Positions 12,576 through 54,827 of a DNA stretch of 64,000 nucleotides are shown in pieces (within the stretch, counting starts at the first letter, position 1; each line of letters opens with the position of its first letter). The position numbers and the translations under genes were made by a program. Location: the NCBI GenBank assembly GCA_046349035.1, contig JAXMDC010000002.1, positions 237,093 through 301,092 on the forward strand, in the 5' to 3' direction. The notes beneath the pieces are model-generated. The model had not been told where the DNA came from, made no database searches, and saw only the letters and a program-made list of their open reading frames with translations. Origin of the DNA: Bauldia sp. Lineage in GTDB: Bacteria > Pseudomonadota > Alphaproteobacteria > Rhizobiales > Kaistiaceae.

Positions 12576-12674
12576 CCGCCCGGCGCCGGGACCGGCCGCC
12601 CCGCACCCCGCGGTTCCCCGCCCTGCCGGGGCCTGATAGAACTCCGCCCGTCGGCTCGGAGGGAGTGTGGTGCC

Positions 12675-13724
12675 ATGCGTATCGGCGGTGTGATTGGGGT
12701 TGCCTTGCCCGCGCTTCTGGCGCTCGCCGCTCCGGCGCTTGCCGACGACCGGACCGATTGCCTCCAGGGCCGCGACCCCGAAGCCGTCATCCGCGGCTGC
12801 TCGGCGCTCATCGCCGCCGGCACCGCACCGGCGTCCGAACTCGCCGACGCCTATGACAGCCGCGGCGCCGCCTACCAGTACAACGGCGCTACCGATCTCG
12901 CCCTCGCCGATTTCACCAAGGCGATCCAGCTGAAGCCCGACGGCTTCCAGGCCTATGTCGACCGCGGCGATACCTACGCCGCCGGCCGCCAACTCGAACT
13001 CGCCGTCGCCGACTACACCCGCGCCATCGCCCTCAACGCCGCCGCCACCGACGCTTATAGCGGCCGCGGCTCGGCGCTGATGAGCCTCGGGCGGACCGAG
13101 GCGGCGATCGCCGACTTCGGCAAGGTGATCGATGCCGACCCGGCCTCGCCCGACGGTTACGTCGCGCGCGGCATTGCGAGGAGCGCTGCCCAGCAATACG
13201 ACCTCGCCATCGCCGACTTCGACGCCGCCCTAAAGCGCGACGACAAGCAGGCCTTCGTCTACGACCTTCGCGGCACCTCCAACTTCGCCAGGAAGAGCTA
13301 CGAGGCCGCCATCGCCGATTTCAGCAAGGCTCTCGCCCTGCAGCCCGGCGAGGTGCAGGTCCATCTCAACCGGGCTCTCGCCTACGACGCGACCGGCCAG
13401 TACGCCCTCGCCATCGCCGACTACGGCAAGGCGGTGCTGAAGATCTCCGCCGACCCGCAGATCTACATCAACCGCGGCACCGACTACATCAAGACCAGCC
13501 AGTGGGACCTCGCCGTCCGCGACTTCAGCCAGACCATCCGTCTCGCCCCCGATCTCGCGCTCGGCTACACCGGCCGCGGCGAGGCCCTGGCCGGCAAGGG
13601 CGACTTCGCCCGCGCGCTCGAGGACTACGAGGCCGGCGCCAAGCTCCTCGCCGCCGGCACCCCCGCCCGCGCCGACGCCGACGCCAAGATCGCCGACCTC
13701 AAGCGGAAGGCGGGAGGGCGGTAG
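12675..13724 (+). CDS. Periplasmic TPR-repeat protein. Paralog of the N-terminal sensor domain of the TPR-caspase protein at 54828.
   Basis: 349 aa. Signal peptide, then a conserved DDRTDCLQGRDPEAVIRGCSALIAAG box, then about 8 TPR units, each with an AIADF/AVADY signature. Confidence 0.8.
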   Translation: MRIGGVIGVALPALLALAAPALADDRTDCLQGRDPEAVIRGCSALIAAGTAPASELADAYDSRGAAYQYNGATDLALADFTKAIQLKPDGFQAYVDRGDTYAAGRQLELAVADYTRAIALNAAATDAYSGRGSALMSLGRTEAAIADFGKVIDADPASPDGYVARGIARSAAQQYDLAIADFDAALKRDDKQAFVYDLRGTSNFARKSYEAAIADFSKALALQPGEVQVHLNRALAYDATGQYALAIADYGKAVLKISADPQIYINRGTDYIKTSQWDLAVRDFSQTIRLAPDLALGYTGRGEALAGKGDFARALEDYEAGAKLLAAGTPARADADAKIADLKRKAGGR

Positions 13725-14553: not shown

Positions 14554-15972
14554 TCACGCCTCCACTCCGCGCCGGAGCCGCTCGCGCATCTCGCCGATGC
14601 GCCCGTTGCGGTAGAACAGGTTGTACGTGTCGAACGGGATGATCTGCCCGGCTGGCGTCAGGAAGTGGACGCAGGAGCGCTTCACCCGGCTGAGGCAGAA
14701 ATTGTGCGCGTCGAGGAATTCGACGACGGCGATGCGGAACATGTTGTCGTAGCCGAGCCCCGCCGGCACCGGCACTTGCGGCAGGCAGCAGAGGAGGGCT
14801 TCGAGCCGCTCCGGCGTGTTGCACTCCTGCGTCGCCAGCGAAAAGAACTCGAACACCTTCTGTCGGAGCGCCGGGTATTTCTCGAACGACACCGCGTTCG
14901 GCAGCGCCTCGATGAGATCGTCCTTGGGGAAGAAGGAGGTGATCGGCGTGATCGCCCGCCCGTTCCTGAGCGCATAGCCGATGGCGATCGATTCCGGATT
15001 GCAGGGGAGGGGGATGATGTCGCTCTCGCCGAAGGCGGTGCCGGCGGCGATGATCGCCCGGCGGACTTCCGAGAGCAGCACGCGGTCGCGCTTCTTGTCG
15101 AAGCCGAGGTTGCGGCCGGCGTCCTGGATCGGCTGGAAGGTGACGCCGCGCACGCATTTCCAATCGAGCGCGTAGTCGACGATCGCGCCGACCTCGTCGT
15201 CGTTGACGCCGCGCTTCAGCGTGACGACGAGGGTCGTCGAGATATTGCGGGCTTCCAGCGCCTCGAGCGCCTGGCGGCGGATGCGGCTGAGGTCGGCGCC
15301 GCGCAGCGTCTTCAGCGCCTCGGGGCGGAGCGAGTCGAACTGGAGATAGACCTCGAAGCCCGGCTTGAAGCCGGCGAGCGCATCGGCGAAGGCGGCGTCC
15401 TCGGCGATGCGAATGCCGTTGGTGTTGATCATCACGTGGCGGATCGGCCGCGCCTTGGCCATGCCGATGATGGTGAGGATATCCGGGTGCAGCGTCGGCT
15501 CGCCGCCGGAGAGCTGCAGAAGGTCCGGCTCGCCCTCGCTGGCGACGAGGGCGTCCATCATGAACTCGATTTCCTTGAGCGGCCGGTGCAGCGTTTTCGC
15601 CGTTCCGCTCTCGGCAAAGCACACCGGGCAGTTGAGGTTGCAGGCTTCGTTGACGTCGATCAGCGCCAGGCACGAGTGCTGCTCGTGATCGGGGCAGAGG
15701 CCGCAATCGTAGGGGCAGCCAAGGTCGGTCCGCGCCTGAAACTCGTGCGGCCGGTCGCCCGGTTTGATGTAGTCGCGGCAGAGCTTGTAATAGGCGGCGT
15801 CGGTCGAGATCAGCGCCTTCTGCACGCCATGCTGCCGGCAGCGCTTCTGGTAGTAGACCTCCTCGCCCTCGATCAGGATCTTGGCCGGCACCAGCGCCAG
15901 GCACACCTCGCAGAGCGAGGTCGTTTGGCCGAGAAACACATAGGGCGCGATCTTGCGGGTCGGGGCGTTCAT
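14554..15972 (-). CDS. Radical SAM enzyme with an extra N-terminal Cys cluster (zinc-ribbon/rubredoxin-like).
   Basis: 472 aa. The canonical CNLNCPVCF (CX3CX2C) motif follows N-terminal CEVC...C and CPYDCGLCPDHEQHSC clusters. Further C-terminal Cys residues (CC...C...C) are present. Confidence 0.85.
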   Translation of the reverse strand: MNAPTRKIAPYVFLGQTTSLCEVCLALVPAKILIEGEEVYYQKRCRQHGVQKALISTDAAYYKLCRDYIKPGDRPHEFQARTDLGCPYDCGLCPDHEQHSCLALIDVNEACNLNCPVCFAESGTAKTLHRPLKEIEFMMDALVASEGEPDLLQLSGGEPTLHPDILTIIGMAKARPIRHVMINTNGIRIAEDAAFADALAGFKPGFEVYLQFDSLRPEALKTLRGADLSRIRRQALEALEARNISTTLVVTLKRGVNDDEVGAIVDYALDWKCVRGVTFQPIQDAGRNLGFDKKRDRVLLSEVRRAIIAAGTAFGESDIIPLPCNPESIAIGYALRNGRAITPITSFFPKDDLIEALPNAVSFEKYPALRQKVFEFFSLATQECNTPERLEALLCCLPQVPVPAGLGYDNMFRIAVVEFLDAHNFCLSRVKRSCVHFLTPAGQIIPFDTYNLFYRNGRIGEMRERLRRGVEA

Positions 15973-17308: not shown

Positions 17309-17839
17309 TCAGCCCTCCCACACATACGTCCGCGGCCCGTAGGGCGCATCGTAGCGCGAGAGCATGGTGCCGAAGGCGCCGTTGCCGGGGCGCGGGTGGA
17401 GCGTCTCGTCGAGCGGCAGCAGCACGTCGTCGCTGACCTGCCAGAACGCCGAGAGCCCTTCGGCGGCGGGGCCTTCCAGGCGATAGAGCCTCGCCTCGGG
17501 ATAGCCGGCGATGCCGGTCGCGGCGCTGACCGCGCCCTCGCTGACCAGGCGGTCGTTGCCGGCGGTGCCGACGAGAGCGAGCCAATAGCTCGCCGGCGCG
17601 CCCTCGCTGCCGCCATAAAGCACGAGCTGCACCTTCAGCCGCGCGCAGGCGGCGACCACGCACGGCATCCGCCCCTCATAGACGCCGCGGATCGGCGCCC
17701 CGCCGGCGTTCCGCTCCGGGTAGGGCGGATCGAAGGTGGCGGTGCGAAGGCGCGGCCGCGACGCCTCGGCCTGAACCAGCGCGCCGGCCCCGAAGGCGGC
17801 GGCGATCAGCGCAACGGCGACAAGCTTTCCGGCGGTCAT
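17309..17839 (-). CDS. Periplasmic hypothetical protein.
   Basis: Start at MTAGKLVAVALIAAAFGAGALVQA (signal peptide). Two Cys residues. The longer ORF upstream reads through an lgt-derived remnant in the wrong frame. Confidence 0.5.
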   Translation of the reverse strand: MTAGKLVAVALIAAAFGAGALVQAEASRPRLRTATFDPPYPERNAGGAPIRGVYEGRMPCVVAACARLKVQLVLYGGSEGAPASYWLALVGTAGNDRLVSEGAVSAATGIAGYPEARLYRLEGPAAEGLSAFWQVSDDVLLPLDETLHPRPGNGAFGTMLSRYDAPYGPRTYVWEG

Positions 17840-17865
17840 GGCGTAGTCCTCCCGGCTGCGGCACG

Positions 17866-17945
17866 CCCCTCCCGCCCGCGCGCCAGCATCAGCGTGCCAT
17901 AGACGAGCAGTGTGAGGCAAAGGAGGTGGAAGGTTGAGCGGGTGC
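17866..17945. repeat. About 75-80 bp imperfect direct copy of the 3' end of the lgt-family gene (18886..18965), with a frameshift. A gene remnant or att-like duplication.
   Basis: CGCGCCAGCATCAGCGTGCCATAGACGAGCAGTGTGAGGCAAAGGAGGTGGAAGGTTGAGCGGG aligns with CGCGCCAGCATCAATGTGCCATAGGCGACGAGCGCCAGGCAAAGGAGGTGGAAGAGGTTGAGCGGG at about 85% identity. Confidence 0.6.
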
Positions 17946-17974
17946 GAACAAAGCGCGAGGACTTGGGGGGTGGC

Positions 17975-18691
17975 TCACGCCTTCCTGACCGGCGCAGGAT
18001 CGCGTCGCTCTGCATCGGTCAACAGCAGCCAACCGGCAACGACCACGACTCCAAGCGACATGACGCCAAAACACGCCGAGACGCCGAGCACGGCGGGGCT
18101 TGCGTGGGGGCTGAGAAGGGCCCCAAGGGGCGCAAGGAGACTAATTCCTCCAAGAAAACAAACAAACCGGGGAAGTCGCCTGTTGCGCACCGGTGCCGGA
18201 CAGCCGTCGGCCGGTGACCAGCCGCCCGGAAGGAAGAAGAACAGCAACCCGATACCAAGGACGGCCGCCGGGACGCTGGCGGTGAAAAGCGCGGCGTCGT
18301 TGCGGGCCGCGTCGCTCGTTGGCGGTGGCCAGAACGCGAACTCTGCGAGCTGGATTGAAAAAACCGCCAGCAGGAGCGACCCGTAAAAGAAAGCCATCAA
18401 CCCGTAGGCCTGACCGATAAGGGTCCGGCGCACGTCGATCTCAATGCGGTCGCCGAGCAGCCCCTTGAGCATCGGCGATGAAGACCGCCCGGTGTACATC
18501 GCCACAAGAGGGCGAAGCGACAGGACGCCGAGAATGATTGGAATCTGAACGGAGCCCGCGCCGGGCCGGAGCCAATACAGGGCGCTGGGAGCCACAAACG
18601 CGATTCCGAGCGTGCTACCGATTGCCCGCGCGTGGTAACGGCGTCGATCTCGGGCGCCGGCAAGCGTCTCAGAGGGCCGCGATATCCTCAT
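17975..18691 (-). CDS. Integral membrane protein, hypothetical. Lies within the block bracketed by the lgt-end direct repeats.
   Basis: At least 6 TM helices. Start tentatively at MRISRPSE. Confidence 0.4.
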   Translation of the reverse strand: MRISRPSETLAGARDRRRYHARAIGSTLGIAFVAPSALYWLRPGAGSVQIPIILGVLSLRPLVAMYTGRSSSPMLKGLLGDRIEIDVRRTLIGQAYGLMAFFYGSLLLAVFSIQLAEFAFWPPPTSDAARNDAALFTASVPAAVLGIGLLFFFLPGGWSPADGCPAPVRNRRLPRFVCFLGGISLLAPLGALLSPHASPAVLGVSACFGVMSLGVVVVAGWLLLTDAERRDPAPVRKA

Positions 18692-18872
18692 CGCTCGCCG
18701 CCTCGCCTCGGCGCGCTTGTGCAACGCCCTCCAGGATCGCCGCATGGGCCTTGGCGTCGATCGGCGCGGCGTTGCGGGCGGCGATCGCCATCAGGAGATC
18801 GGCCGCCTCGTCCTGGTCGGCCTCCGGCCATTGCCGAGCCTCGGCGACCGCATCTTCAAAGCGCTTGTTCAT
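18669..18872 (-). CDS. Small acidic protein resembling the 'putative addiction-module component' (TIGR02574-like) antitoxin family.
   Basis: 67 aa: MNKRFEDAVAEARQWPEADQDEAADLLMAIAARNAAP.... Helical, acidic. No cognate RelE/ParE-like toxin ORF was found next to it. Confidence 0.35.
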   Translation of the reverse strand: MNKRFEDAVAEARQWPEADQDEAADLLMAIAARNAAPIDAKAHAAILEGVAQARRGEAASDEDIAAL

Positions 18873-19573
18873 TGCCCGATCCTAGCACCCCGCCCGCGCG
18901 CCAGCATCAATGTGCCATAGGCGACGAGCGCCAGGCAAAGGAGGTGGAAGAGGTTGAGCGGGCCGAGCACCGCCGCGTAGGGCTTCAGGAACTCCCAGAG
19001 GAAGCGCTGCCCGGCATAGACGATGACGAGGAGATAGAAGCCGTTCGCCATGAAGAACGCATCGCGCCGCGCGAAAGCGAGGAGGGCATAGGCGAGGAAG
19101 GCCGCCATCGTCAGGCTCTCGTAGAGCGCCACCGGGTGGCGGGGGATGCCGTCGCCGAAATCCCAACCCCAACTCCCGCCGGTGGCGATCCCATAGGTGT
19201 GGTCGTCGAGGCCGGCGAGCAGGCAGCCGATCCGCCCGACCGCGACCGTCGTCGCAAAGCCGGCGACGAAGAGGAGGCCGGTCGAGCCCTTGATCCCTGC
19301 GATGCGCTTATAGACCTCGACCGTGAAGATCGCCCCGGCGAGCGAGCCGGCGATCGAGCGGCCGATGGCCGGAATTCCGGTGAGTGCGAGATTGGCGGTG
19401 CCGAAACCGTAGGCGCCGACGACCGAGCCGGCGATCAACGCCGCGACATAGGCCGACGAGAGCCGCCGCTCCGGGTCGCGGTCGGTGCCTTTCAGGCGCC
19501 AGAGATACACCCCCGCCGTCACCAGCGCCGACGCCGCCGCGGCGAGAAGGTCGAAGAGCGTGTGGACGGGCAT
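18869..19573 (-). CDS. Prolipoprotein diacylglyceryl transferase (Lgt)-family membrane protein.
   Basis: 234 aa. GSWGWDFGDGIPRHPVALYESL resembles the Lgt signature (G...R(H)P..LYE). Multiple TM helices. Real C-terminal part of the 463-aa ORF. Confidence 0.6.
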   Translation of the reverse strand: MPVHTLFDLLAAAASALVTAGVYLWRLKGTDRDPERRLSSAYVAALIAGSVVGAYGFGTANLALTGIPAIGRSIAGSLAGAIFTVEVYKRIAGIKGSTGLLFVAGFATTVAVGRIGCLLAGLDDHTYGIATGGSWGWDFGDGIPRHPVALYESLTMAAFLAYALLAFARRDAFFMANGFYLLVIVYAGQRFLWEFLKPYAAVLGPLNLFHLLCLALVAYGTLMLARGRGARIGQ

Positions 19574-19593
19574 GGCCTCCCCGCCCCGCCGCC

Positions 19594-20304
19594 CTAGTTC
19601 GCAGCGCCCGGCTGGAACACCACGCGGTCGTTGACGGCGTAGAGGATGCAGCGGGCGCCGGGATTGGCCTGGCAGTCGGCGGCCGCCTGGTCGATGGCGG
19701 CAAAGACCGTGTCGCCGGTCCGCCAGAGCCAGAACTGCGTCGGCGTGATGATGAGGGCCTTCGGCTTCGTCTCGCGTCCGTAGGCGCGGAGCAGCGCCTG
19801 GTCGGCCCGCGACAGGAACGGGATCTGGTCTGCGTCGAAGGCGGCCGCGGGCGCCACCAGCAGCCGCGGCTGCAGCGGCAGCGAACCGTCGGCGAGCCGC
19901 ACTTCCTTGCCGTTGATCGAGACGATCGCGCAGGCGACGGTGGTGTAGAACTCGCAGGCCTGCAGCGCTTGGCGGGCGAGGTCGGCGATCGAGTAGGGCT
20001 CGTTCGGCTTCACGACGAAGCGCGCCGCCCAGGAGTCGGTGCCGAAGGCGGCGGCGAAGACGAAGCCGGCGTTCTTGCCGTCCTGCATCTCCTCGATCGA
20101 CTCCTTGAGAACGCGGCGCGCCGTCTCGCTCAGCCACTCGTACTTGGCGGGGTCGATGTCGCGGCTGCCGATGGCGACGATCGGCTCGGCCGGGCCTTCC
20201 GCCGATGCCGGCGACGAAGCGGCCAGCAGAGCGGCGGCAAGCGCCGCGCCGACGACGCATCCGAAGAACCGCCCGACGGCGGCGAAGGAACGCCCGAACG
20301 CCAT
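19594..20304 (-). CDS. Secreted hypothetical protein.
   Basis: 236 aa. Signal peptide AALAAALLAASSPASA|EGP, then a soluble domain with 4 Cys. Confidence 0.55.
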   Translation of the reverse strand: MAFGRSFAAVGRFFGCVVGAALAAALLAASSPASAEGPAEPIVAIGSRDIDPAKYEWLSETARRVLKESIEEMQDGKNAGFVFAAAFGTDSWAARFVVKPNEPYSIADLARQALQACEFYTTVACAIVSINGKEVRLADGSLPLQPRLLVAPAAAFDADQIPFLSRADQALLRAYGRETKPKALIITPTQFWLWRTGDTVFAAIDQAAADCQANPGARCILYAVNDRVVFQPGAAN

Positions 20305-20499
20305 GACCCGAACCCCTTGCGATGCCGACCCCGGCGGCTCGCTCGCCGCCGGATTTCCCGGCCGGGACAATAGGTTGGCGCGGCCGGAGGGGTCAACGCG
20401 GGGAGGGGGCGGCGCCGCCTCGATCTTGCGCCCGCTCAAGGCGTCGGCCCGCCGCGGCGTCCATCTTCTATTCAAACCCCTACTCCCCGGAGGCCGCCG

Positions 20500-21489
20500 A
20501 TGCCCCGCCGCCGCGTCGTCCTTGCCGCAATCGCCGTGGCGCTTGTTGCCGCCGCCGGCGCCGTCGCCTGGAGCTACAACACCGACCTTGCCCGCGCCCG
20601 CGCCGCGCTTGGCGAAGGCGCGCTGATCGCCGAGACGGCCGCCGGCCGCATCGAGTATGCCGACCGCGGCAGCGGCCCGCCGCTCCTCTCCATCCACGGC
20701 GCCGGCGGCGGCTTCGACCAGGGCCTCGCCAACGCCGCCGACCTCGTCGGCGCCGGCTATCGCGTCATCGCTCCCTCGCGCTTCGGCTATCTCGGCACGG
20801 CGGTGCCGGCCGATCCGCTGCCGGCCCGCCAGGCCGACGCACATGCGGCGCTTTTGGATACGCTCGGCATCGACAGGGCGGTGGTGGTTGGCGTCTCGGC
20901 CGGGGCCCGCTCCGCCCTCGAACTCGCGCTTCGCCATCCGCAGCGCGTGTCGGCGCTGGTGCTGATCGTGCCCGGCACCTATGCGCCGGAGAGCCCGGTG
21001 ATGATCGAGGAGAGCCGCGGCAGCCAGCTCGCCTTCGCGCTCGTCAACGCCGGCGCCGACTTCGCCTGGTGGAGCCTGGAGAAACTCGCGCCCGACGTCC
21101 TCACCCGCTTCCTCGGCGTGCCGCCCGAACTCCTAGCCCGTGTCTCGCCCGCCGAACGCGCCCGCGCCGAGGCGATCCGGGCGAGCGTCCAGCCGCTCTC
21201 GCGCCGCGTCGCCGGCATCAATGTCGACAGCCGGCCCGATCTCGCGCCGCTGCCGCTGGAGAAGATCGCCGCGCCGACGCTGGTGATCTCGGCCCGGGAC
21301 GATCTTTTCAATACCCGCCCGGCTGCCGAGCACGCCGCCGCGGGCATTCCCGGCGCGAGGCTCATCGTCTACGAGAACGGCGGCCATCTCCTGGTCGGCC
21401 GTCAGGCGGAGGCCCGCGCCGCCGTCGCTAGCTTTCTCGCCACGGCCGGCCTTGCGCCGGGAGCCGTCCTCGGCGCCGCGACGCGATAA
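20500..21489 (+). CDS. Alpha/beta-fold hydrolase.
   Basis: 329 aa. N-terminal membrane anchor, HGAGGG oxyanion-hole region, GVSAGA nucleophile elbow (GxSxG), C-terminal His region (GGHLL). Confidence 0.8.
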   Translation: MPRRRVVLAAIAVALVAAAGAVAWSYNTDLARARAALGEGALIAETAAGRIEYADRGSGPPLLSIHGAGGGFDQGLANAADLVGAGYRVIAPSRFGYLGTAVPADPLPARQADAHAALLDTLGIDRAVVVGVSAGARSALELALRHPQRVSALVLIVPGTYAPESPVMIEESRGSQLAFALVNAGADFAWWSLEKLAPDVLTRFLGVPPELLARVSPAERARAEAIRASVQPLSRRVAGINVDSRPDLAPLPLEKIAAPTLVISARDDLFNTRPAAEHAAAGIPGARLIVYENGGHLLVGRQAEARAAVASFLATAGLAPGAVLGAATR

Positions 21490-21568
21490 CGGGAACGCCC
21501 CGTAACCTCCGGCGGCGTCCGGGCGTATTCTCTTCGCCGGGATGCGTCTGGTCGCTGGGAGAGGGGAT

Positions 21569-22591
21569 ATGCGTTCGTTGAGATCGACCGGCAGGGCCCG
21601 CCCGGCGGCCGGCCTCGCCGCCGCCCTTGCCCTTGCAGCGCTAGCGACCGCCGCCCTGCCGGGCCACCCGCTTGCCCAGGCCGCCGCCGACGCCGCCTGC
21701 AGCGGTGGCGTCCTCGCTGCCCTCGGTTCTCCCCCGGCGATCCGCTGCCTCCGCCCGGGCGATGTCTTCCGCGATTGTGCCGAGCCTTGCCCGGAGATGG
21801 TCGTCGTTCCCGCCGGCAGCTTCCTCATGGGCTCGCCCGAGGGCGAGGCCGACCGCAGCGAGGACGAGGGGCCGCTGCATCGCGTCGCCATCGCCGCGCC
21901 CTTCGCCGTTGCCCGCCTGGAAGTGACGCGGGGCGCCTTCGCCGCATTCGTCGCCGAGACCGGCTACGCCCCGCCGCCCGGCTGCCATGTGGCCATTCCC
22001 TCCGGCTTTGCCGACGGGCGCAACAAGACCTTCCGCGATCCCGCCTTCGCGCAGGACGACCGCCATCCGGCGGTCTGCGTCAGCCACGACGACGCCGACG
22101 CCTTTCTCGCCTGGCTCACGCGGCAGGCCGGCACGCCCTACCGGCTGCTCAGCGAGGCGGAGTGGGAATACGCCGCCCGCGCCGGCAACGCGTCGGATTT
22201 CGCCTTCGGCGCGCCCGAGCGCCAATGCGCCGCCGTCAACGCCGCCGACCTCGCCTTCGAAGCGACCTTCGCCGGCTGGGAGGCCGCCGATTGCGACGAT
22301 GGCGCGGTCTACACCGCGCCCGGCGGCAGCTATCCGCCGAACGCCTTCGGCCTCCACGACATGACCGGCAATGTCTGGGAGTGGACGGCCGACTGCTACC
22401 ACGAGGACTACACCGGCGCCCCGGCCGACGGCACGCCCTGGCTCGCCGGCGAGTGCCGCACCCGCGTCTCGCGCGGCGGCTCCTTCGTCGACGCGCCGCG
22501 CTACCTTCGCCCCGCTTACCGCGACGGCAATCCGCCCGACGCCCGCTTCAGCGTGCTCGGCTTCCGCGTCGCGCGGAGCCTGACGCGCTGA
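21569..22591 (+). CDS. Formylglycine-generating enzyme (FGE-sulfatase/SUMF1-type) domain protein, secreted.
   Basis: MVVVPAGSFLMGSP...HRV..., ...YRLLSEAEWEYAARAG..., GNVWEWTADCY, RVSRGGSF: the canonical FGE-sulfatase domain blocks. Confidence 0.8.
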   Translation: MRSLRSTGRARPAAGLAAALALAALATAALPGHPLAQAAADAACSGGVLAALGSPPAIRCLRPGDVFRDCAEPCPEMVVVPAGSFLMGSPEGEADRSEDEGPLHRVAIAAPFAVARLEVTRGAFAAFVAETGYAPPPGCHVAIPSGFADGRNKTFRDPAFAQDDRHPAVCVSHDDADAFLAWLTRQAGTPYRLLSEAEWEYAARAGNASDFAFGAPERQCAAVNAADLAFEATFAGWEAADCDDGAVYTAPGGSYPPNAFGLHDMTGNVWEWTADCYHEDYTGAPADGTPWLAGECRTRVSRGGSFVDAPRYLRPAYRDGNPPDARFSVLGFRVARSLTR

Positions 22592-22723
22592 GCGCTGGCG
22601 CCGAGCGGAATCCGCTGTAACCTTTCCCCCGCCTGCAGCGAATAGAGTGATTAGCCCCGGCCGCTGCGCTGGGGGCGAAGCAGCCATTGAGCGAAACACC
22701 CATTGAGGGGAGCCGCAGTTCCG

Positions 22724-23122
22724 ATGATCACCCGCCGCCATCTCTTCGCCCTGGCCGCCGTCGCCGGCGCCGCCGCCATGCTTCCGATCGCCGCGCCGGC
22801 CGCCGAGACCAAGCCCTATACCGACGGCGCCTTCGACATCGCCCAGAAGGCGGGGAAGTCGATCCTGGTTCAGATCCACGCCACTTGGTGCCCGACCTGC
22901 GCCGCGCAGGCGCCGATCCTCGCCGACCTCGAGCGCGATCCGAAGTTCCAGAACCTCGTCGTCTTCCATGTCGATTTCGACGATCAGAAGGACGCCGTCC
23001 GCCGCTTCGGCGCGCGCATGCAGTCGACGCTGATCACCTTCAAGAACGGCCGCGAGACCGGCCGCTCGGTCGGCGAGACCCGCCGCCCCGAACTCGCCGC
23101 GCTGCTCGCCAAGGCGGTCTGA
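22724..23122 (+). CDS. Periplasmic thioredoxin-family protein (WCPTC active site). Tat/Sec signal.
   Basis: MITRRHLFALAAVAGAAAM signal. HATWCPTCAAQAP thioredoxin CxxC motif. Confidence 0.75.
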   Translation: MITRRHLFALAAVAGAAAMLPIAAPAAETKPYTDGAFDIAQKAGKSILVQIHATWCPTCAAQAPILADLERDPKFQNLVVFHVDFDDQKDAVRRFGARMQSTLITFKNGRETGRSVGETRRPELAALLAKAV

Positions 23123-25466: not shown

Positions 25467-25823
25467 CTAACTCCCCGTGCGCTTCAGCAGTGCTTCGGCG
25501 ACGCGGCTGACTTGGGCGCGTTCTTCGGGCGTGGCGCGCTTCAGATTGTCGAGGATCGACCAGAGCGCGTCGGTGTCGAGCGGGTTGCGGTTGATGAGGT
25601 CGGTGTCCTCGCAGCCGAGCGCCCAGGAGAGCGATTCGATGATCGGCTGCGTATAGGGCTGCTTGCCGTTTTCCAGGCGGCTTAGGGTCGACTTGGAGAA
25701 GCCCTCCAGGCGGTCGCGCACGCGCTCCACCAGACGGTCCTGCGACAGCTCGCGATGGAGCCGCCACTCGCGGATGAAAGTCCGGCGCAAGGGCGCCAGA
25801 CGCGATGAAACGCGCTTCGGCAT
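25467..25823 (-). CDS. XRE-family helix-turn-helix transcriptional regulator (phage-repressor-like).
   Basis: 118 aa. LSQDRLVERVRDRLEGFSKSTLSRLENGKQPYTQPIIESLSWALGC is an HTH_XRE domain. Confidence 0.7.
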   Translation of the reverse strand: MPKRVSSRLAPLRRTFIREWRLHRELSQDRLVERVRDRLEGFSKSTLSRLENGKQPYTQPIIESLSWALGCEDTDLINRNPLDTDALWSILDNLKRATPEERAQVSRVAEALLKRTGS

Positions 25824-25915
25824 TATTCCCTCTTACGGAACAATGCCTTAGGAGTCGTTACGGCTAGCAGCAACAAAACCGCTTGACAGTTATTCCATGA
25901 GAAGGAATATTCCTT
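25818..25915. promoter_or_regulatory. AT-rich promoter region upstream of the XRE gene with two related palindromic operator-like sites.
   Basis: First site: GGCATTATTCCCTCTTACGGAACAATGCC, overlapping the start codon. Second site: a 32-nt near-perfect palindrome TTCCATGAGAAGGAATATTCCTTCTTATGGAA. Half-site is TTCCnTnAGAAGGAATA. Confidence 0.5.
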
Positions 25916-26083
25916 CTTATGGAACGCCTGGAAGCGCCCGTAGAAGGGGTAAAACCCTCTCCCCACCTCAGGGTCCCCGTTGCCGAGAGCCGCGCTCGCC
26001 CAAGGGGCGCCAGGCCGGCAGGGGCGCTTGCCCGCGTTCCAAGGAGCGGCCCGCTGTCCTCCCCAGCCCTGCCGCATCCCGGG

Positions 26084-26212
26084 GCGGCGCCTTTTGGCGT
26101 CGCCCCGCTTTTCCCTTGGAAGAATTGGGCGGCGCCTTCTGGCGTCGTCCCGCTTGTCCCTCGGAAGAACTGCGCGGCGCCTTGCGGCGTCGCCCCGCTT
26201 TCCCCTTCGGTA
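26084..26212. repeat. About 2.8 copies of a 45-bp tandem direct repeat in the intergenic space.
   Basis: Unit GGCGGCGCCTTYTGGCGTCGYCCCGCTTNTCCCTYGGAAGAAYTG, repeated head-to-tail (26084-26128, 26129-26173, then a partial copy). Confidence 0.7.
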
Positions 26213-26236
26213 CCCGCAGCCGCCGCGGCGCCCCGC

Positions 26237-26770
26237 CTAGTCGCCGGCGTAGAGTGCCGGCGGGGTGGGGGCAGGTGCCTCGCTCCCGGCGAATGTCTTG
26301 GCGATCCGGCCGAGCGCGGCGAGGAATGCGCTGCGCGGGAAGACCAGCCGCGCCACGATCACCCGCTCCGTCGCCCGCCCATGCGGCCGGTCGGCATAGC
26401 AGGTGATGCGCACGTGATCGCCGTGATCCTCCGGCGGCATCACGCCGGTGACGAAACTGTCCAGCACCAGCGCCGGCTCGATCGGCACCGGCTCGCGCTC
26501 GCGCCGCGCGCTCCGTCCGCCGAGCGGCAGCGCCTTGGCGGCGGCCATCGCCGCGATCTCTGCCGGCCGCTCCTCGGCAAGGCCTCCGGGCGCCGCCGCC
26601 GCGCCGTCCGCGGCGGCCTTCAATCCCGTCCTCTGCGCCTCTGTAGCTTCGCTTGTGCCGGCCCCCGTCGGCTGTTCGATCGGCTGGGCGCCCTTCTCGC
26701 CCGCCTTGCCCAACTCCGGCGGAACGGGCGCGCCTCCGGCGCCCTCCACCAGTTTCATGCGTCCCATCAA
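26237..26770 (-). CDS. Hypothetical protein (C-terminal real part of a long Arg-rich artefact ORF).
   Basis: From MKLVEGAGG... to ...LVLDSFVTGVMPPEDHGDHVRITCYADRPHGRATERVIVARLVFPRSAFLAALGRIAKTF. Balanced composition. Confidence 0.35.
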   Translation of the reverse strand: MMGRMKLVEGAGGAPVPPELGKAGEKGAQPIEQPTGAGTSEATEAQRTGLKAAADGAAAAPGGLAEERPAEIAAMAAAKALPLGGRSARREREPVPIEPALVLDSFVTGVMPPEDHGDHVRITCYADRPHGRATERVIVARLVFPRSAFLAALGRIAKTFAGSEAPAPTPPALYAGD

Positions 26771-27224
26771 GACCTCCGCATCGCGGACCGCACCCCCTGC
26801 CGACACAGCACGGAAAGATTGTACAGGCGTTCCCGTTTTGTCCGAGATCACGACTGCGTGACAGTGCGACCCGGCCCCAAAGAGGCGGCCAAAGCGTGAG
26901 CAGCGCGGCGTTTCTGGTCCTGCCGATGGCCGCGATAGCGGCGCTGGCAAAGGCGGCGCTCCACGTCGAAATGCGTCTCGCGGCATCGGAGAAGACGAGT
27001 AGCTGCAGAGGCATACGCCAGGTCGGCGCGCCGCTCCGGCCGCTGCCGCGGCGTCGGCGCGAGCCGGCATTACCGCCGGACGGGGAGGGGACCGGCATCG
27101 GCTCGCCGCTCGTTCCCCTCGCCGCGTCGCGATCCGGCTGCGCCCGTCGCGAACGTACAATCTTCCACCATAACGGGAACGGCCCTCCCACTTCCGCTCC
27201 GCCGGTGCCGGCGAATGCCGCCAA

Positions 27225-27857
27225 GTGGGCGCCCCCGCCGCTCCTGCCGACGCTCCGCGGAGGGTGGCGGTGAGGCGCCCGGCGCGGGGCGGCCTGCCGC
27301 TGGTGCGCTCGCCGCGTCTCCTCACCGGCGTCGAGATCCAGCGCCTCGCCGACGACCTCGGCGAACTGAAGCGCCGCGTCGCCGGCCTCAGCGGCGAGGT
27401 CGGCAAGCTGCGCGATCGCCTCCGGCCGCCGCAGGGCGTAGAGGCGCTCCACGCCAAGGCGCGGCCGGCGATCGGCACCATCCAGCGGGTGGTGGCCGCC
27501 CATTACGGCATCGACCCGCTGGAGTTCGTGTCGCAGCGGCGGGGCCGGATGACGGCGATGGCGCGCCGCATCGCCATCTACCTGGCGCGGCACATGACCG
27601 TCGCCTCGCTGCCCGAGATCGGCCGCGCCTTCGGCGGCCGCGACCACTCGAGCGTCTTCCATGCCATCCGGCGCCTGGAGAGGCTGATGCTCGCCGACCC
27701 CGCGCTCGCCGTCGAGGTCTCCGAGCTTCGCCAAGCGGTGATCGCCAGGGCCGGCGACGCGGTCTATTTCTCCTCGGTCGGTAAAGGCGAGGCGCCGCTC
27801 CCGACGTCGGCGCCGAACGAGCCGACCGGAACGGCCGAGCCGGAGGCCGGGCGATGA
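27225..27857 (+). CDS. DnaA C-terminal (HTH) domain protein, a phage/GTA-associated stand-alone DnaA_C. The true start is probably the internal GTG at about 27272.
   Basis: VVAAHYGIDPLEFVSQRRGRMTAMARRIAIYLARHMTVASLPEIGRAFGGRDHSSVFHAIRRLERLM matches the DnaA domain IV DNA-binding fold. No AAA+ domain. Confidence 0.7.
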   Translation: MGAPAAPADAPRRVAVRRPARGGLPLVRSPRLLTGVEIQRLADDLGELKRRVAGLSGEVGKLRDRLRPPQGVEALHAKARPAIGTIQRVVAAHYGIDPLEFVSQRRGRMTAMARRIAIYLARHMTVASLPEIGRAFGGRDHSSVFHAIRRLERLMLADPALAVEVSELRQAVIARAGDAVYFSSVGKGEAPLPTSAPNEPTGTAEPEAGR

Positions 27858-29227
27858 CGGCTCTCCCCGTGCCGCCGACGCCGGCCTCGACCGACCTCCG
27901 CGACCTGCCGTTCATGCCGCTCGATGTCGGGCGTCTGCGCGACAGCGAACTCGCCGGCATCGCCAGCGCCGAGGCGTTCCGCGCCTGCGTCCTCTCCTGG
28001 TGCGTCGCCTGGCACCAGGTGCCGGCCGGCAGCCTCCCCGACGACGACGCGGTGCTGGCCCGCCTCCTCGGCTTCGGCCGCAACGTCAAAAGCTGGCGGC
28101 GGGTGCGCGCCGCCGGCGGCCTGCACGGCTGGTTCCGTTGCAGCGACGGCCGCCTCTATCACCCCATCGTCGCCGAGAAGGTCGCCTATGCCGAACGCCG
28201 CCGCGAGGCCGCGCGCGAGCGGACGCAAAGCGCCCGCGCCGTGGCGCTCGCCCGCCGCCGTCCGGGGGAGGGTGCCGTTCCCGCCGTTGCCGCCGCCCTG
28301 CCGCCGCAGGCCGCGCCGGCCTTCCCGCCGCTCCCGCCGGATGACCGCGCGGCTGCCGCCGCCGCGGCCCGCGCCGAGGTCGAGACCGTCGACGCCGCTT
28401 CGCCGCAACCCTCTGTGACAGACCTTGCGACAGAGCCCATAGGAAGAGAAGGAGAAGAAGAGAAGGAAGAGCCAAGCGCAACCGGCGAGCACCGCCCGCC
28501 CGTCGCCGGGGGCGACGGATCGGGCCCGCCGCTGGCGCCGGAACTGCTGCGCCGCGCTGCGCTGGTTTTGCCTTCGGCAGAGCTGCCCTCGGGCGATTGG
28601 CGGCCACCGGCTGCCGACCTCGCGCTCCTCCGCGCCCGCCTCCTCGCCGCCGCCGCACCGCCCGACGACTGGCCGCTCGCCGCTGCCGCCAGCCTCGCTC
28701 CGCTGCCGCAGCTTCTCGCCGAGGGCTGCGACCTCGGCCGCGACGTCCTGCCGACCGTCGCCGCCGTCGCCGACGCTGCCCGGAGCGCCGCTCCGCCGCG
28801 CACCATCGCCGCCTGGAGCTACTTCGCCCCGGCGATCCGCGAGGCCCATCGCGCCCGCCTCGCCGCCGGCGACTCCGCCGCGCCGGCTGCGCTCGCCGCC
28901 GAGGGCGGGGAGGGGGCCGCCGCCGCAGCGCCCCGCGTCTTCGTCCCGCTGAACGACCGCCGCTTCTCCGCCCTCCGCAAACGCTGGCGGACCGAGCGCC
29001 ATCGCGAGCCGCCGACCGTCGCCGGCAGGGGCGGCAGCGGCTGGTACTTCGATGCCAGTTGGCTGGAGGGCGAGGCCGCCGACGCTCTCCCGTCATCTGC
29101 TGGCGGCGGGGAAGGCGCTGCGGGGGGCGGTGCCAAGGAGCACCCCGTCGGTGAGGATGGACCCCGACCCGCCGAGCCGCCCGCAGCCGCCCCGCCGCCC
29201 GCCGGAGGCGCCGATGCCGCGCGCTAA
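27854..29227 (+). CDS. DUF1376 (YdaU-like) domain protein, an alphaproteobacterial prophage replication-associated protein.
   Basis: The N-terminus LPFMPLDVGRLRDSELAGIASAEAFRACVLSWCVAWHQVPAGSLPDDDAVLARLLGF...YHPIVAEKV is the DUF1376 signature. Long Ala/Pro-rich C-terminal tail. 4-nt overlap with the DnaA_C gene. Confidence 0.7.
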   Translation: MTALPVPPTPASTDLRDLPFMPLDVGRLRDSELAGIASAEAFRACVLSWCVAWHQVPAGSLPDDDAVLARLLGFGRNVKSWRRVRAAGGLHGWFRCSDGRLYHPIVAEKVAYAERRREAARERTQSARAVALARRRPGEGAVPAVAAALPPQAAPAFPPLPPDDRAAAAAAARAEVETVDAASPQPSVTDLATEPIGREGEEEKEEPSATGEHRPPVAGGDGSGPPLAPELLRRAALVLPSAELPSGDWRPPAADLALLRARLLAAAAPPDDWPLAAAASLAPLPQLLAEGCDLGRDVLPTVAAVADAARSAAPPRTIAAWSYFAPAIREAHRARLAAGDSAAPAALAAEGGEGAAAAAPRVFVPLNDRRFSALRKRWRTERHREPPTVAGRGGSGWYFDASWLEGEAADALPSSAGGGEGAAGGGAKEHPVGEDGPRPAEPPAAAPPPAGGADAAR

Positions 29228-29350
29228 GGCCCGCCGCACGGGATCGGCCAACGAGGCGGCGCGCCCGCCCGCCAGCTCGCCGAGCGCGAGAAGCGCGGGC
29301 TCGGCGCCTCGACGCCGGAGCGCCTCTGCCACTCCGGCGCGCCGCTCGCG

Positions 29351-29806
29351 GTGATCGCCGGCACGCGCACGCAGCGCATCTCCGTCGCCCCGCTCGACCG
29401 CCTGGCGGGGAAGCGCATCAAGGGCCGGCCGCTGCTGACGCGCCGGCAATACGAGGCGGGGGAGAGGCTGCGCGACGACGGCTACCTCGCCGGCTTCATG
29501 CGGAGCCCCGGCATGACGCTCGAAGTCATCGACCGCGGCTTCCAGGCGAACGGCCCGGCCTTCGCCGACAGCGAGCGCGCCGCCGCCGCGATGCGGCGCC
29601 TGCGCCGTGCCAAGGCGGCGCTCGGCCGCCCGCTGGCGGTGGTGCTGGAAGCGGTGATCTGGCCCGAAGACGACATCCACACGATGAGCGCCATCGGCAA
29701 GAAGCTCTTCAACCGCGCCGACGCCACCGCCGCCGAAGCCGCCGCGATCGAGGCCGTCAAGCTAGCGCTGGAAACGCTGGCCGACCACTACGAGGGGCGG
29801 GGGTGA
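29351..29806 (+). CDS. Hypothetical protein (prophage-module associated).
   Basis: 151 aa, balanced composition. Sits directly downstream of the DUF1376 gene. Confidence 0.45.
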   Translation: MIAGTRTQRISVAPLDRLAGKRIKGRPLLTRRQYEAGERLRDDGYLAGFMRSPGMTLEVIDRGFQANGPAFADSERAAAAMRRLRRAKAALGRPLAVVLEAVIWPEDDIHTMSAIGKKLFNRADATAAEAAAIEAVKLALETLADHYEGRG

Positions 29807-52091: not shown

Positions 52092-53348
52092 TCAGCGCTC
52101 GAGGAAGCGGAGCTGCTGGTTGCTCAGCCGGTCGTCCGGGTCGATTGCCTGCGCCTTGCGGAAATCGGCGATCGCTTGTGGGCGCAGGCCGAGCGCCGCA
52201 TAGGAGAGGCCGCGATTGCCGTAAGCCTCGACATAGGTCGGATGGAACTCGATCGCCTGGGTGAAGTCGGCGATGGCGCGCTCGCTGTCGCGCTTGGCCA
52301 CATAGGCCTTGCCGCGGGAATTGAGGGCGTTGAAGTCCTTGGGGTTGATGGCAATCGCCCGGTCGTAGTCGGCGATCGCCTCGTCGATGCCGCCGAGCGC
52401 CTGAAGCGCGTTGCCGCGATTCCAATAGGCGACGCCGTTCTTTGGATTGATGGCGATCGAGAAATCGTAATCGGCGATCGCTTTGCGGTAGTTGCGCAGG
52501 CCTTCGTAAGCGGCGCCGCGACAGTTGTAGCCGATGAAGTTTCCGGGATCGCGCCTGATGACCTCGCTGCAGTCGGCAACGGCGCGGTCGTACTGGCGAT
52601 TGTTGCTATAGGCGACGCCGCGCGAGCTGTAGAGCCACAGGAGGTTGGGATCGAGCCGGATCGCCTCGCTGTAGTCGGCGATGGCCGCCTCCCATCCGCC
52701 CTTCTTGGTGATCAGCCGTTGACGGAAATGGGCGTGCCCCCGCTGGCCGAAGGCGAACGCGGAAGAGGGGTCGAGGGTCACCGCCGCGGTGAGGTCGGCG
52801 ATCGCCTTGTCGAACGCGCCCTTTTCCGTCCACGCCATGCCGCGCCGGGCATGGGCCAGTCCGTCCCTGGCATCGATCTCGATCGCCGCTGAATGATCGG
52901 CAAGTGCCGCGTCGTAGTCGCGAAGGCCGAAGTGAGCGATGCCGCGATGGTCGTAGGCCGGGCCGTGCCTGGGATCGATCGCGATCGCTTGGCTGCAGTC
53001 GGCGATAGCCGCCGCGTGGTCCTCCTTGCTTTCATACGCCTCGCAGCGTTGCGCCAAGGCAGCGGCGCTCGCCGGGTCGAGCCGAATCGCCTCGCTATAG
53101 TCGGCAATGGCGCGTTCGTAGTCCTTTCGGTTGAACCACCCCCGGCCGCGGTTCCTGAAGGCTTCGGCGCGCACGCTTGCCGTTTCGCTTGCGTCCTCGG
53201 CGATCCGTCCGCAGGCGGCGTTGGCGGCCTCCGGCTTCCCGGCGCTGGCGGCGCACTCGGCCCGGTCGGCCGGTGTCGCGGCCGCTGCCGGCGTCGCGAG
53301 CAGGACGCTGAGACCGAGAAGCAGGACGCTCGATCCGCGCGCCGGCAT
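52092..53348 (-). CDS. Periplasmic TPR-repeat protein.
   Basis: 418 aa. Signal peptide, then about 10 TPR units each containing AIADY/AIADF/AVADC. Confidence 0.8.
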   Translation of the reverse strand: MPARGSSVLLLGLSVLLATPAAAATPADRAECAASAGKPEAANAACGRIAEDASETASVRAEAFRNRGRGWFNRKDYERAIADYSEAIRLDPASAAALAQRCEAYESKEDHAAAIADCSQAIAIDPRHGPAYDHRGIAHFGLRDYDAALADHSAAIEIDARDGLAHARRGMAWTEKGAFDKAIADLTAAVTLDPSSAFAFGQRGHAHFRQRLITKKGGWEAAIADYSEAIRLDPNLLWLYSSRGVAYSNNRQYDRAVADCSEVIRRDPGNFIGYNCRGAAYEGLRNYRKAIADYDFSIAINPKNGVAYWNRGNALQALGGIDEAIADYDRAIAINPKDFNALNSRGKAYVAKRDSERAIADFTQAIEFHPTYVEAYGNRGLSYAALGLRPQAIADFRKAQAIDPDDRLSNQQLRFLER

Positions 53349-53360
53349 GGCGATCCAAGC

Positions 53361-54522: not shown

Positions 54523-54827
54523 CGGGAGGTCTCCATTCTTCCAGCTGTTTCGTCTGGCAGCTGCTTCGTCTGGCTGCCGGTTCGTCCCGCCCTGCGGCTC
54601 GGCACCGTTTAACGAATGGGGGCCAAACCCGTTGACGGAATCCAGCCACAAACTCTCGCCGAGGTCCATCGAAAATGTCAGCGGCCCCGTCAACGCGCAA
54701 CGCTCACGACGGTTTCCCGCACCGCTGTCCGCCCGCCCTCCGGGCGCCCCGCCGCCCCCGCCGCTTCATCTGGCGTTCAGGTTGCGCGGTGTTACACTCG
54801 CTCAACCCAGCCGCTTGGGAGGGTCGC

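What the first reader, a model, noticed from the sequence alone, without database searches (positions are those of the whole stretch)
17866..18965. Direct duplication of the 3' end of the lgt-family gene brackets a ~1-kb block
About 75 bp encoding the last ~25 codons of the Lgt-like gene (18886-18965) recur at 17866-17945, about 85% identical and with a frameshift. There the sequence is read out-of-frame by the long ORF upstream of the 17309 gene. The bracketed block carries a multi-pass membrane protein and a small acidic 'addiction-module component'-like protein. The pattern resembles attL/attR duplication created by site-specific insertion into a gene's 3' end, or a small segmental duplication. 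No integrase is present, so it may be a relic.
Basis: seen in the sequence. Interest (0 to 1): 0.55.

Follow-up and report, generated by a model that had tools for sequence, protein, structure and literature searches.

The report
Old gene insertion flanked by repeats
About 1 kb of foreign DNA carrying two genes with no known relatives was inserted into the end of a membrane-enzyme gene in a Bauldia bacterium, pushing aside the gene's original last ~25 codons, which survive as a dead duplicate; this is a real but fairly ordinary scar of gene acquisition.

Summary
The repeat is real. Window 17871-17942 matches 18889-18962: a 74-column alignment, 86.5% identical, with one 2-nt gap (blastn E 5e-18; local score 99 against 23±2.3 in shuffles). 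All genes here lie on the minus strand. Copy B lies inside the intact Lgt-family gene (18869-19573). Copy A is that gene's displaced native 3' end.

A relative provides an empty site. In it (81% aa identity; L044/L045) the Lgt-like gene runs straight through one copy of the repeat. It continues into the tail still found after copy A, and then overlaps (ATGA) the orthologue of the 17309 gene. So a 1018-nt unit was inserted. It carries a 67-aa acidic helical protein, a 238-aa multi-pass membrane protein and a ~50-nt lgt-like arm.

The insert has lower G+C (65.8% against 70.6%). Its two proteins have no homologue in searches of billions of proteins and match no family model, so the 'addiction module' label is unsupported. 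It has no integrase, no terminal inverted repeats and no second copy, and no donor was found.

Best reading: a relic of a Campbell-type (single reciprocal crossover) integration, comparable to a decayed integrative element. Whether the recombination was site-specific is not shown. Interest is low to moderate.

The parts
18869..19573 (-). Intact Lgt-family gene (234 aa). The 5' portion down to the repeat is native. The last 6 codons and the stop are supplied by the insert.
   Evidence: PF01790, E 5e-15, above the gathering score. The exact protein P0001 is annotated in a Bauldia sp. MAG. 84.5% nt identity to L044 over 19576-18889.
18889..18962 (-). Repeat copy B, inside the active gene (codons 204-228: ..LNLFHLLCLALVAYGTLMLARGR).
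   Evidence: Its 5' part matches L044 at 6 informative positions.
17871..17942 (-). Repeat copy A, a displaced fragment of the gene's 3' end (..FHLLCLTLLVYGTLMLARGR) with a 2-nt deletion. Non-functional remnant.
17871..17891 (.). 21-nt stretch identical in both copies (also at 18889-18909), at the 3' boundary of the homology. Together with the adjacent 9-nt identical stretch 17894-17902 it is the candidate crossover zone.
   Evidence: Only two occurrences in the window at up to 3 mismatches, against 0.04 expected. Three-way alignment.
17836..17870 (-). Native C-terminal tail (EGRAAAGRTTP*) of the ancestral Lgt-like gene. Its TGA overlaps the ATG of the next gene (ATGA).
   Evidence: Matches the tail of P0002/L044 (REERAAAGRALP*) and the same ATGA junction.
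18869..18888 (-). New tail (GARIGQ*) brought by the insert. It contains AGGA 7 nt before the ATG of the 67-aa gene, and its stop overlaps that ATG (ATGA).
   Evidence: Read from the sequence. It shows no homology to the native tail beyond the AGGA and ATGA motifs.
18669..18872 (-). Cargo gene 1: a 67-aa acidic (pI 4.4), four-helix protein with no detectable homologue.
   Evidence: Only itself found in 5.8e9 proteins. No family or PDB match. AF2 model pLDDT 72.5, all-helical. No fold match.
17975..18691 (-). Cargo gene 2: a 238-aa basic multi-pass membrane protein with no detectable homologue. It overlaps cargo gene 1 by 23 nt.
   Evidence: Only itself in the word-indexed search and in a full phmmer search of 1.84e9 representatives. 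At least 5 hydrophobic segments. GC3 0.55-0.85 in this frame. Called as 238 aa in three assemblies. The NCBI record calls only the last 165 aa.
17943..17974 (.). Spacer between the stop of cargo gene 2 and repeat copy A. It may be degraded further homology to the Lgt-like gene.
   Evidence: The extended alignment is not significant (p about 0.08).
17309..17839 (-). 176-aa secreted protein gene, the original downstream partner of the Lgt-like gene, now separated from it by the insert.
   Evidence: Orthologue in L044/L045 directly after the Lgt-like gene with a 4-nt overlap. N-terminal hydrophobic signal-like segment.

Best explanation
A promoter-less block of about 0.95 kb of foreign DNA was inserted into the 3' end of the Lgt-family gene in the lineage of this Bauldia MAG. 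It carries two overlapping genes with no known relatives (a 67-aa acidic helical protein and a 238-aa membrane protein).

The topology is that of a single reciprocal (Campbell-type) crossover between a circular incoming molecule and the chromosome. The incoming molecule carried a stretch of about 74 nt resembling the gene's last transmembrane helix. Upstream of the crossover the gene is native. Downstream of it, the insert supplies a new 6-codon tail, a Shine-Dalgarno sequence and an ATGA stop/start overlap. The cargo is therefore probably translated as part of the host operon (up236, lgt-like, 67-aa, 238-aa, 176-aa genes). The native end of the gene was pushed about 1 kb downstream. It survives there as a dead fragment (copy A plus the native tail) still abutting its old partner, the 176-aa gene.

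No recombinase, terminal inverted repeats or second copy were found. The block is therefore best seen as a relic or non-autonomous remnant, comparable to a decayed integrative element that kept attL and attR.

Shown: the repeat, the insertion relative to an empty site, which copy is native, the atypical composition and the lack of relatives for the cargo. Inferred: the circular intermediate, the position of the crossover, co-expression with the host gene, and whether the recombination was site-specific or homologous.
For: 1. Repeat significance.
2. Empty site: L044 nt 703-1405 aligns to window 19576-18889 (84.5%) and L044 nt 1337-1998 aligns to window 17937-17285 (75%). So 69 nt of L044 align to both copies. 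L045, from a second sequencing run, has the same layout.
3. Which copy is native: the tail after copy A (GREGRAAAGRTTP*, ATGA) matches P0002 (GREERAAAGRALP*, ATGA). The active tail GARIGQ* occurs in none of the 120 listed homologues.
4. Switch of informative sites in the three-way alignment. Copy B agrees with L044 at the 2-nt indel and 5 substitutions on the 5' side. Copy A agrees with L044 at the adjacent dinucleotide 17892-17893 and in everything 3' of the core.
5. Polarity: none of 40 other Lgt-like loci carries the cargo or a duplicated 3' end.
6. Foreign character: G+C is 65.8% against 70.6% for the window and 73.4% for the next gene, and GC3 is lower. The cargo has no homologues.
7. Tight packing and the SD/ATGA junction were read from the sequence.
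8. The differences between the arms are clustered: 6 of 8 fall within 12 nt, P about 0.02 under uniform decay. This fits two alleles slightly better than uniform decay of one duplicated sequence.
9. The same structure appears in 4 independent assemblies.
Against: - No integrase or other recombinase was found among the ORFs scanned (no gene from 14.5 to 23.9 kb is one, nor any of the other large ORFs tested up to 59 kb).
- No donor and no related autonomous element were found anywhere.
- No other Lgt-like locus has such an insertion, so target specificity is unsupported.
- The arms are only 86.5% identical. Yet they share YGTLMLARGR, which none of the listed homologues has. Any donor arm therefore came from a very close relative, or the duplication arose in place.
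- The 'switch' on the 3' side rests on one dinucleotide, which is synonymous in the active gene.
- 1 kb is far smaller than known integrative elements.
- The only empty site is from a different species (dS 0.35), not a sister strain.
Confidence: 0.6

Rival explanations
1. Duplication in place. The block entered by an illegitimate event such as repair of staggered breaks, template switching, or one-ended homologous plus illegitimate joining. That event duplicated about 74 nt of host sequence. Copy A then decayed as a pseudogene while copy B accumulated only synonymous changes.
For: - Both arms share YGTLMLARGR, which none of the listed homologues has. This suggests a common origin within this lineage.
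- The timing is consistent. The arms differ at 8 of 72 sites, while dS between the window and L044 is 0.35.
- The two changes specific to copy B are synonymous and adjacent.
- No recombinase or donor was found.
Against: - I know of no mechanism that routinely gives a target duplication of about 74 nt in bacteria (own knowledge).
- The differences are clustered (P about 0.02), with perfect runs of 21, 9, 18 and 10 nt. Uniform decay would not predict this.
- The replacements in copy A (A to T, V to L, A to V) remain compatible with a transmembrane helix.
- The SD plus ATGA junction between the gene and the cargo looks adapted to this position.
Confidence: 0.25
2. Reversed polarity. The repeat-flanked block is ancestral to the window/L044 clade, and the L044 lineage lost it by homologous recombination between the direct repeats.
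For: Recombination between 74-nt direct repeats would regenerate exactly the L044 arrangement. Only one empty-site lineage is available.
Against: - The cargo is absent from all 40 other loci and from the protein databases.
- Its composition differs from its surroundings.
- This only moves the insertion earlier. It does not explain the repeat.
Confidence: 0.08
3. A functional two-gene toxin-antitoxin (addiction) module, or a programmed switch in which recombination between the repeats toggles the C-terminus of the Lgt-like protein and the make-up of the operon.
For: A small acidic helical protein is followed by an overlapping second gene. Direct repeats could in principle mediate reversible loss.
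Against: - No antitoxin or toxin family match at E up to 10 in Pfam, up to 1 in NCBIfam and PHROGs, and none in PDB.
- The partner is a membrane protein with several hydrophobic segments and no homologues.
- All four assemblies show only the occupied form, with no variation inside the block.
- Deletion between direct repeats is not reversible.
Confidence: 0.04
4. Chance similarity or an assembly artefact.
For: The G+C-rich sequence produces many weak repeats.
Against: E 5e-18; the score lies about 33 sd above shuffles; the remnant is in frame at protein level; four independent assemblies agree; an orthologous empty site exists.
Confidence: 0.01

Closest known systems
Decayed integrative elements that keep attL/attR but have lost integrase and transfer genes (cis-mobilizable elements, CIMEs), and integrative elements that target the 3' end of a gene
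   Same: Direct repeats flank the block. One repeat lies in the 3' end of the target gene, which stays intact. The displaced copy sits at the far end. There is no recombinase inside. A single-copy empty site exists in a relative. The CIME definition is taken from PMC5704250.
   Different: - The block is only about 1 kb.
- The repeats are 74 nt at 86.5% identity rather than short identical cores.
- The element-supplied gene end is not a copy of the native end (new tail GARIGQ).
- No related autonomous element, integrase or second insertion site is known.
Campbell-type single-crossover integration of a circular DNA through a short homologous segment, as with suicide plasmids in the laboratory
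   Same: The topology is identical: the homologous segment ends up as a direct repeat on both sides of the inserted DNA, and the gene is hybrid across the crossover.
   Different: This is a natural event, and no replicon or vector functions are present. The origin of the circular molecule and of its lgt-like arm is unknown.
Integrase-less modules moved by host recombinases (Xer-dependent IMEX elements, pdif modules of Acinetobacter plasmids). This comparison rests on my own knowledge.
   Same: Small cargo modules of 1 to a few kb, without their own recombinase, bounded by recombination sites.
   Different: The repeats here are coding sequence of an Lgt-family gene. They are direct rather than inverted XerC/XerD pairs, and I see no resemblance to a dif site. 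This was judged by eye only and was not tested formally.
Type II toxin-antitoxin ('addiction') modules
   Same: Two small overlapping genes, the first encoding an acidic helical protein.
   Different: No family model matches either protein. The second protein is a 238-aa membrane protein, and no DNA-binding fold was recognised.

Membership tests
Relic integrative element (CIME-like) | Direct repeats (attL/attR) flank the block | tested here: met
   17871-17942 against 18889-18962, E 5e-18. The 21-nt identical core occurs only at these two sites.
Relic integrative element (CIME-like) | One repeat lies in the 3' end of the target gene, and the gene remains intact | tested here: met
   The Lgt-like ORF is intact at 234 aa and matches PF01790 over profile positions 33-239 of 240. 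However, its last 6 residues are new rather than a restored copy.
Relic integrative element (CIME-like) | Empty site with a single copy of the repeat in a related genome | tested here: met
   L044 and L045. Caveat: this is a different species (81% aa identity, dS 0.35).
Relic integrative element (CIME-like) | Derived from, or sharing att sites with, an autonomous element that encodes a site-specific recombinase | tested here: not met
   The cargo has no homologue anywhere. The insert DNA matches nothing in the plasmid or phage collections. No duplicated 3' end in 36 other Lgt-like loci. No integrase among the ORFs scanned. Only 64 kb of the 1.13-Mb contig could be read.
Relic integrative element (CIME-like) | Excision to a circular form, with attB restored | not testable with these tools
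   Needs read-level data or experiments.
Transposon / IS / MITE | Terminal inverted repeats, a short target-site duplication, a transposase | tested here: not met
   No inverted repeats at the ends of the block. The duplication is 74 nt. No transposase domain was found.
Type II toxin-antitoxin module | Antitoxin and toxin each belong to a recognised family | tested here: not met
   Pfam, NCBIfam and PHROGs give nothing for either protein except one weak Pfam match (prePAAR_I, E 0.52) for the 238-aa protein and one weak NCBIfam match (TIGR04061, E 0.096) for the 67-aa protein, both far below cut-off. The PDB sequence search and the fold search (67-aa protein only) give no meaningful match. PADLOC was not run.
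Prolipoprotein diacylglyceryl transferase (Lgt) family, for the host gene | Match to PF01790 above the gathering score | tested here: met
   55.8 bits against a cut-off of 24.9. Whether it has canonical Lgt activity was not tested. In relatives it is paired with a Tes/TrsS-like radical SAM gene, which suggests a different role.
Integron gene cassette | An attC site (imperfect inverted repeat) at the cassette end and a nearby integron integrase | tested here: not met
   No inverted-repeat structure at either end, and no integrase was found.

The most novel reading that the evidence does not exclude
The block is not a dead relic but a minimal, integrase-less, promoter-less cassette specialised for the last transmembrane helix of this Lgt-family gene. 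It would carry its own copy of the target (the arm), supply a replacement tail with an SD/ATGA junction so that its genes are expressed from the host operon, and be inserted or excised in trans by a recombinase encoded elsewhere in the genome or by host recombination. That would be a new, very small class of gene-3'-end-targeting cassettes delivering previously unseen membrane proteins.
Probability: 0.08. Interest if true: 0.6.

Novelty: new member of a known kind. Interest (0 to 1): 0.3.

Why it matters
This is a clean, datable example of how a lineage-specific pair of genes without relatives was grafted into an existing operon. The host gene stayed intact, translational coupling was rebuilt at the new junction, and the old gene end was left behind as a marker.

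It is useful in three ways:
- As an annotation lesson. The NCBI record calls only 165 aa of the membrane protein, and the remnant is unannotated.
- As a marker for strain typing in Bauldia.
- As a small data point on gene gain next to a widely conserved gene pair of unknown function (Lgt-like plus a Tes/TrsS-like radical SAM gene).

It does not open a new mechanism unless the cassette proves to be mobile.

Tried and rejected
- Looked for a third remnant of the Lgt-like 3' end just upstream of the radical SAM gene, which would indicate nested insertions. None: homology to L001/L002 starts only 4 nt before the radical SAM start.
- Looked for duplicated Lgt-like 3' ends in 36 other loci. None was relevant.
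- Asked whether the 0.5-2.8 kb gaps between the Lgt-like and radical SAM genes in Rhizobiaceae and Phyllobacteriaceae are similar insertions. They hold a conserved third gene unrelated to anything here.
- Searched for homologues of both cargo proteins: word-indexed search of 5.8e9 proteins, full phmmer search of 1.84e9 representatives (membrane protein only), viral contigs (membrane protein only), and the plasmid and phage DNA collections. Only the proteins themselves were found.
- Structure route. The 67-aa model (pLDDT 72.5) gave no fold match. The membrane-protein model (pLDDT 56) was too poor to search.
- Searched for a donor Lgt-like allele with the tail GARIGQ or the LTLLVY variant among the 120 listed homologues. 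None.
- Tested whether the homology extends to the ATGA junction or beyond 17942. Only the SD and ATGA motifs match, and the upstream extension is not significant.
- Rfam scan of 15.5-21 kb: nothing above threshold.
- Promoter/terminator scan: one sigma-70-like site upstream of up236 and nothing inside the block.
- The divergent ends of L047 match nothing in the window, so they are probably an assembly chimera and were not used.
- Used the single metagenome scan on the 176-aa protein. It found 21 homologues (47-60% identity), none next to an Lgt-like gene and none closer than L044.
- The TrsS literature look-up gave no functional information.
Full report
**Observation.** All genes in this region lie on the minus strand. 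The repeat finder and a gapped alignment show that window 17871-17942 repeats 18889-18962. The match is 62 nt ungapped at 87% identity, then a 2-nt deletion in the lower copy, then 10 identical nt. blastn scores it as a 74-column alignment with 8 mismatches and 1 gap, E 5e-18 against the window. The local score of 99 compares with 23.1 +/- 2.3 in 300 shuffles. The 21-nt stretch CCCGCCCGCGCGCCAGCATCA is identical in both copies and occurs nowhere else in the window with up to 3 mismatches. It is the only dispersed repeat of this type in the 64 kb. The further similarity up to 17964/18985 suggested by one alignment is not significant (p about 0.08). The same 6.7 kb, or parts of it, were assembled from three other samples at 99.85-100% identity, so the structure is not an assembly artefact.

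**Anatomy.** The upper copy (B) lies in an intact 234-aa gene (18869-19573) that matches Pfam LGT above threshold. The exact protein is annotated in a Bauldia sp. MAG. The repeat covers codons 204-228 (..LNLFHLLCLALVAYGTLMLARGR). The last six codons (GARIGQ) and the stop are not repeated.

The TGA of this gene overlaps the ATG of a 67-aa gene (18669-18872), with AGGA 7 nt upstream of that ATG. That gene overlaps by 23 nt a 238-aa gene (17975-18691), which has at least five hydrophobic segments. After a spacer of about 32 nt comes the lower copy (A). In the Lgt frame it reads ..FHLLCLTLLVYGTLMLARGR and continues as EGRAAAGRTTP*. Its TGA overlaps the ATG (17837-17839) of a 176-aa gene with a signal-like N-terminus (17309-17839).

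**What it is: an insertion.** The closest relative of the Lgt-like protein outside this species is P0002 (81% identical, 244 aa). It ends ..LMLAQGREERAAAGRALP, which is the tail that follows copy A, not the tail of the active gene. On its contigs L044 and L045, from two sequencing runs, the gene is followed with a 4-nt overlap by a 179-aa orthologue of the 176-aa gene. At DNA level, L044 703-1405 aligns with window 19576-18889 (84.5%) and L044 1337-1998 aligns with window 17937-17285 (75%). So 69 nt of L044 align with both copies, and the roughly 0.95 kb between them is absent. This is an empty site against an occupied site.

None of 40 other Lgt-like loci carries the cargo or a duplicated 3' end, so presence of the block is the derived state. 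The block has 65.8% G+C against 70.6% for the window and 73.4% for the next gene, with weaker GC3.

Both cargo proteins match only themselves in a 5.8-billion-protein word search. For the membrane protein the same holds in a full phmmer search of 1.84 billion representatives. The cargo matches no Pfam, NCBIfam or PHROG model even at permissive thresholds, apart from two weak matches far below cut-off. The 67-aa protein has no meaningful PDB sequence or fold match, and the membrane-protein model was too poor to search. The insert DNA matches nothing in the plasmid or phage collections, and the membrane protein matches nothing in viral contigs. The 'addiction-module' label therefore has no support.

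**Which copy is native, and where the exchange lay.** In the three-way alignment, copy B agrees with L044 on the 5' side of the repeat: it lacks the 2-nt deletion and shares CCTGGCGCTC and GCx. Copy A agrees with L044 at the adjacent dinucleotide 17892-17893 and in everything 3' of the shared core.

The simplest reading is one exchange within or next to GTGCCATAG (17894-17902 / 18912-18920). Native sequence lies 5' of it in the active gene and 3' of it in the remnant. This is the topology of a single reciprocal crossover between the chromosome and a circular molecule. That molecule would have carried an lgt-like arm, the new tail and the two genes.

The support is limited. The 3' side of the switch rests on one dinucleotide, which is synonymous in the active gene. 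The two arms also share YGTLMLARGR, which none of the listed homologues has. Any donor arm therefore came from a very close relative, or the duplication arose in place and copy A then decayed. The timing allows decay: the arms differ at 8 of 72 sites, while dS between the window and L044 is 0.35. The clustering of differences, with 6 of 8 inside 12 nt (P about 0.02), argues mildly against uniform decay. I could not separate these two mechanisms further.

**Mobility.** There are no inverted repeats at the ends of the block. No integrase or transposase domain was found in any gene between 14.5 and 23.9 kb, nor in the other large ORFs tested across the window. No RNA family matched. The only promoter-like site lies upstream of up236, which fits one operon made of up236, the Lgt-like gene, the 67-aa gene, the 238-aa gene and the 176-aa gene. 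The block is therefore non-autonomous at best.

The closest described category is a decayed integrative element that kept attL and attR, a CIME as defined in PMC5704250. One defining feature, relatedness to an autonomous element with the same att specificity, was sought and not found. So I describe the block as working like such a relic rather than as a member of that class.

**Consequences, inferred.** The Lgt-like protein exchanged an 11-residue cytoplasmic tail for a 6-residue one. The cargo is probably translated by coupling to the host gene. The 176-aa gene lost its direct coupling to the Lgt-like gene. A 59-codon ORF (17836-18015) spans the remnant and ends in the old ATGA, and it might still deliver ribosomes to the 176-aa gene. 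This is untested.

**Context.** In about half of the related loci the Lgt-like gene directly abuts or overlaps a radical SAM gene. That gene's best NCBIfam matches are TrsS and the tetraether lipid synthase Tes, both below cut-off. In this window that gene (14554-15972) lies 2.9 kb away. The cargo, the remnant, the 176-aa gene, a small membrane-protein gene on the plus strand and a TetR gene lie in between. Relative to L044 there is also a 3.1-kb difference upstream of the Lgt-like gene. The neighbourhood has therefore been remodelled several times.

**Verdict.** The site-specific mechanism and the addiction-module label are not shown. This is a new instance of a known kind of scar, of low to moderate interest.

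Noticed in passing
window 14554-15972 (-) and 18869-19573 (-); loci L001-L041: The Lgt-family gene and a radical SAM gene form a conserved pair. The radical SAM gene's best NCBIfam matches are TrsS (E 2e-92) and the tetraether lipid synthase Tes (E 5e-81), both below cut-off. The pair is adjacent or overlapping in about 20 of 40 loci from Alphaproteobacteria, Gemmatimonadota and Acidobacteriota. In this window the two genes are split by 2.9 kb. The function of the pair is unknown to me, and a lipid-modifying role is only a guess.
   Followed up: partly
loci L010, L013-L015, L017, L019, L021-L024, L027, L029, L037, L038: In Rhizobiaceae and Phyllobacteriaceae loci a conserved third gene (about 110-200 aa, same strand) sits between the Lgt-like and radical SAM genes. 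It is unrelated to any protein in the window.
   Followed up: partly
window 19577-22721: Relative to L044, about 3.1 kb is extra between the thioredoxin gene (22691-23122, 85% nt identity to the L044 redoxin gene) and the Lgt-like gene. It holds a 236-aa secreted protein, an alpha/beta hydrolase and an FGE-sulfatase-domain protein. I did not look for flanking repeats.
   Followed up: partly
window 17309-17839 (-); loci L049-L069: The 176-aa secreted protein belongs to an uncharacterised family with no Pfam match. It was found in 21 metagenome contigs at 47-60% identity, never next to an Lgt-like gene. In four of them an alpha/beta-hydrolase homologue follows.
   Followed up: partly
window 25470-29806: A cluster of HTH_31, DnaA C-terminal HTH, DUF1376 and DUF6456 proteins. 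It may be a remnant of a phage or an integrated element. No integrase was found in the neighbouring ORFs tested.
   Followed up: no
window 17836-18015 (-): An unannotated 59-codon ORF starts inside the 3' end of the 238-aa gene, spans the remnant helix and ends in the ATGA overlap with the 176-aa gene. It could be a new small membrane peptide or merely a leftover reading frame.
   Followed up: no
window 17975-18691 (-): The NCBI record annotates only the last 165 aa of the membrane protein (P0121), whereas three other assemblies aa, starting at 18691 and overlapping the 67-aa gene. The true start is uncertain.
   Followed up: partly
L047 1-215 and 2797-3147: The ends of this low-coverage ENA contig match nothing in the window, although its middle is 99.85% identical to the window. 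It is probably a chimeric assembly.
   Followed up: partly
window 12576-13724 (+), 52092-53360 (-), 54636-56615 (+): Several TPR-repeat genes share 102-nt periodic repeats that are similar between distant loci (family D1).
   Followed up: no
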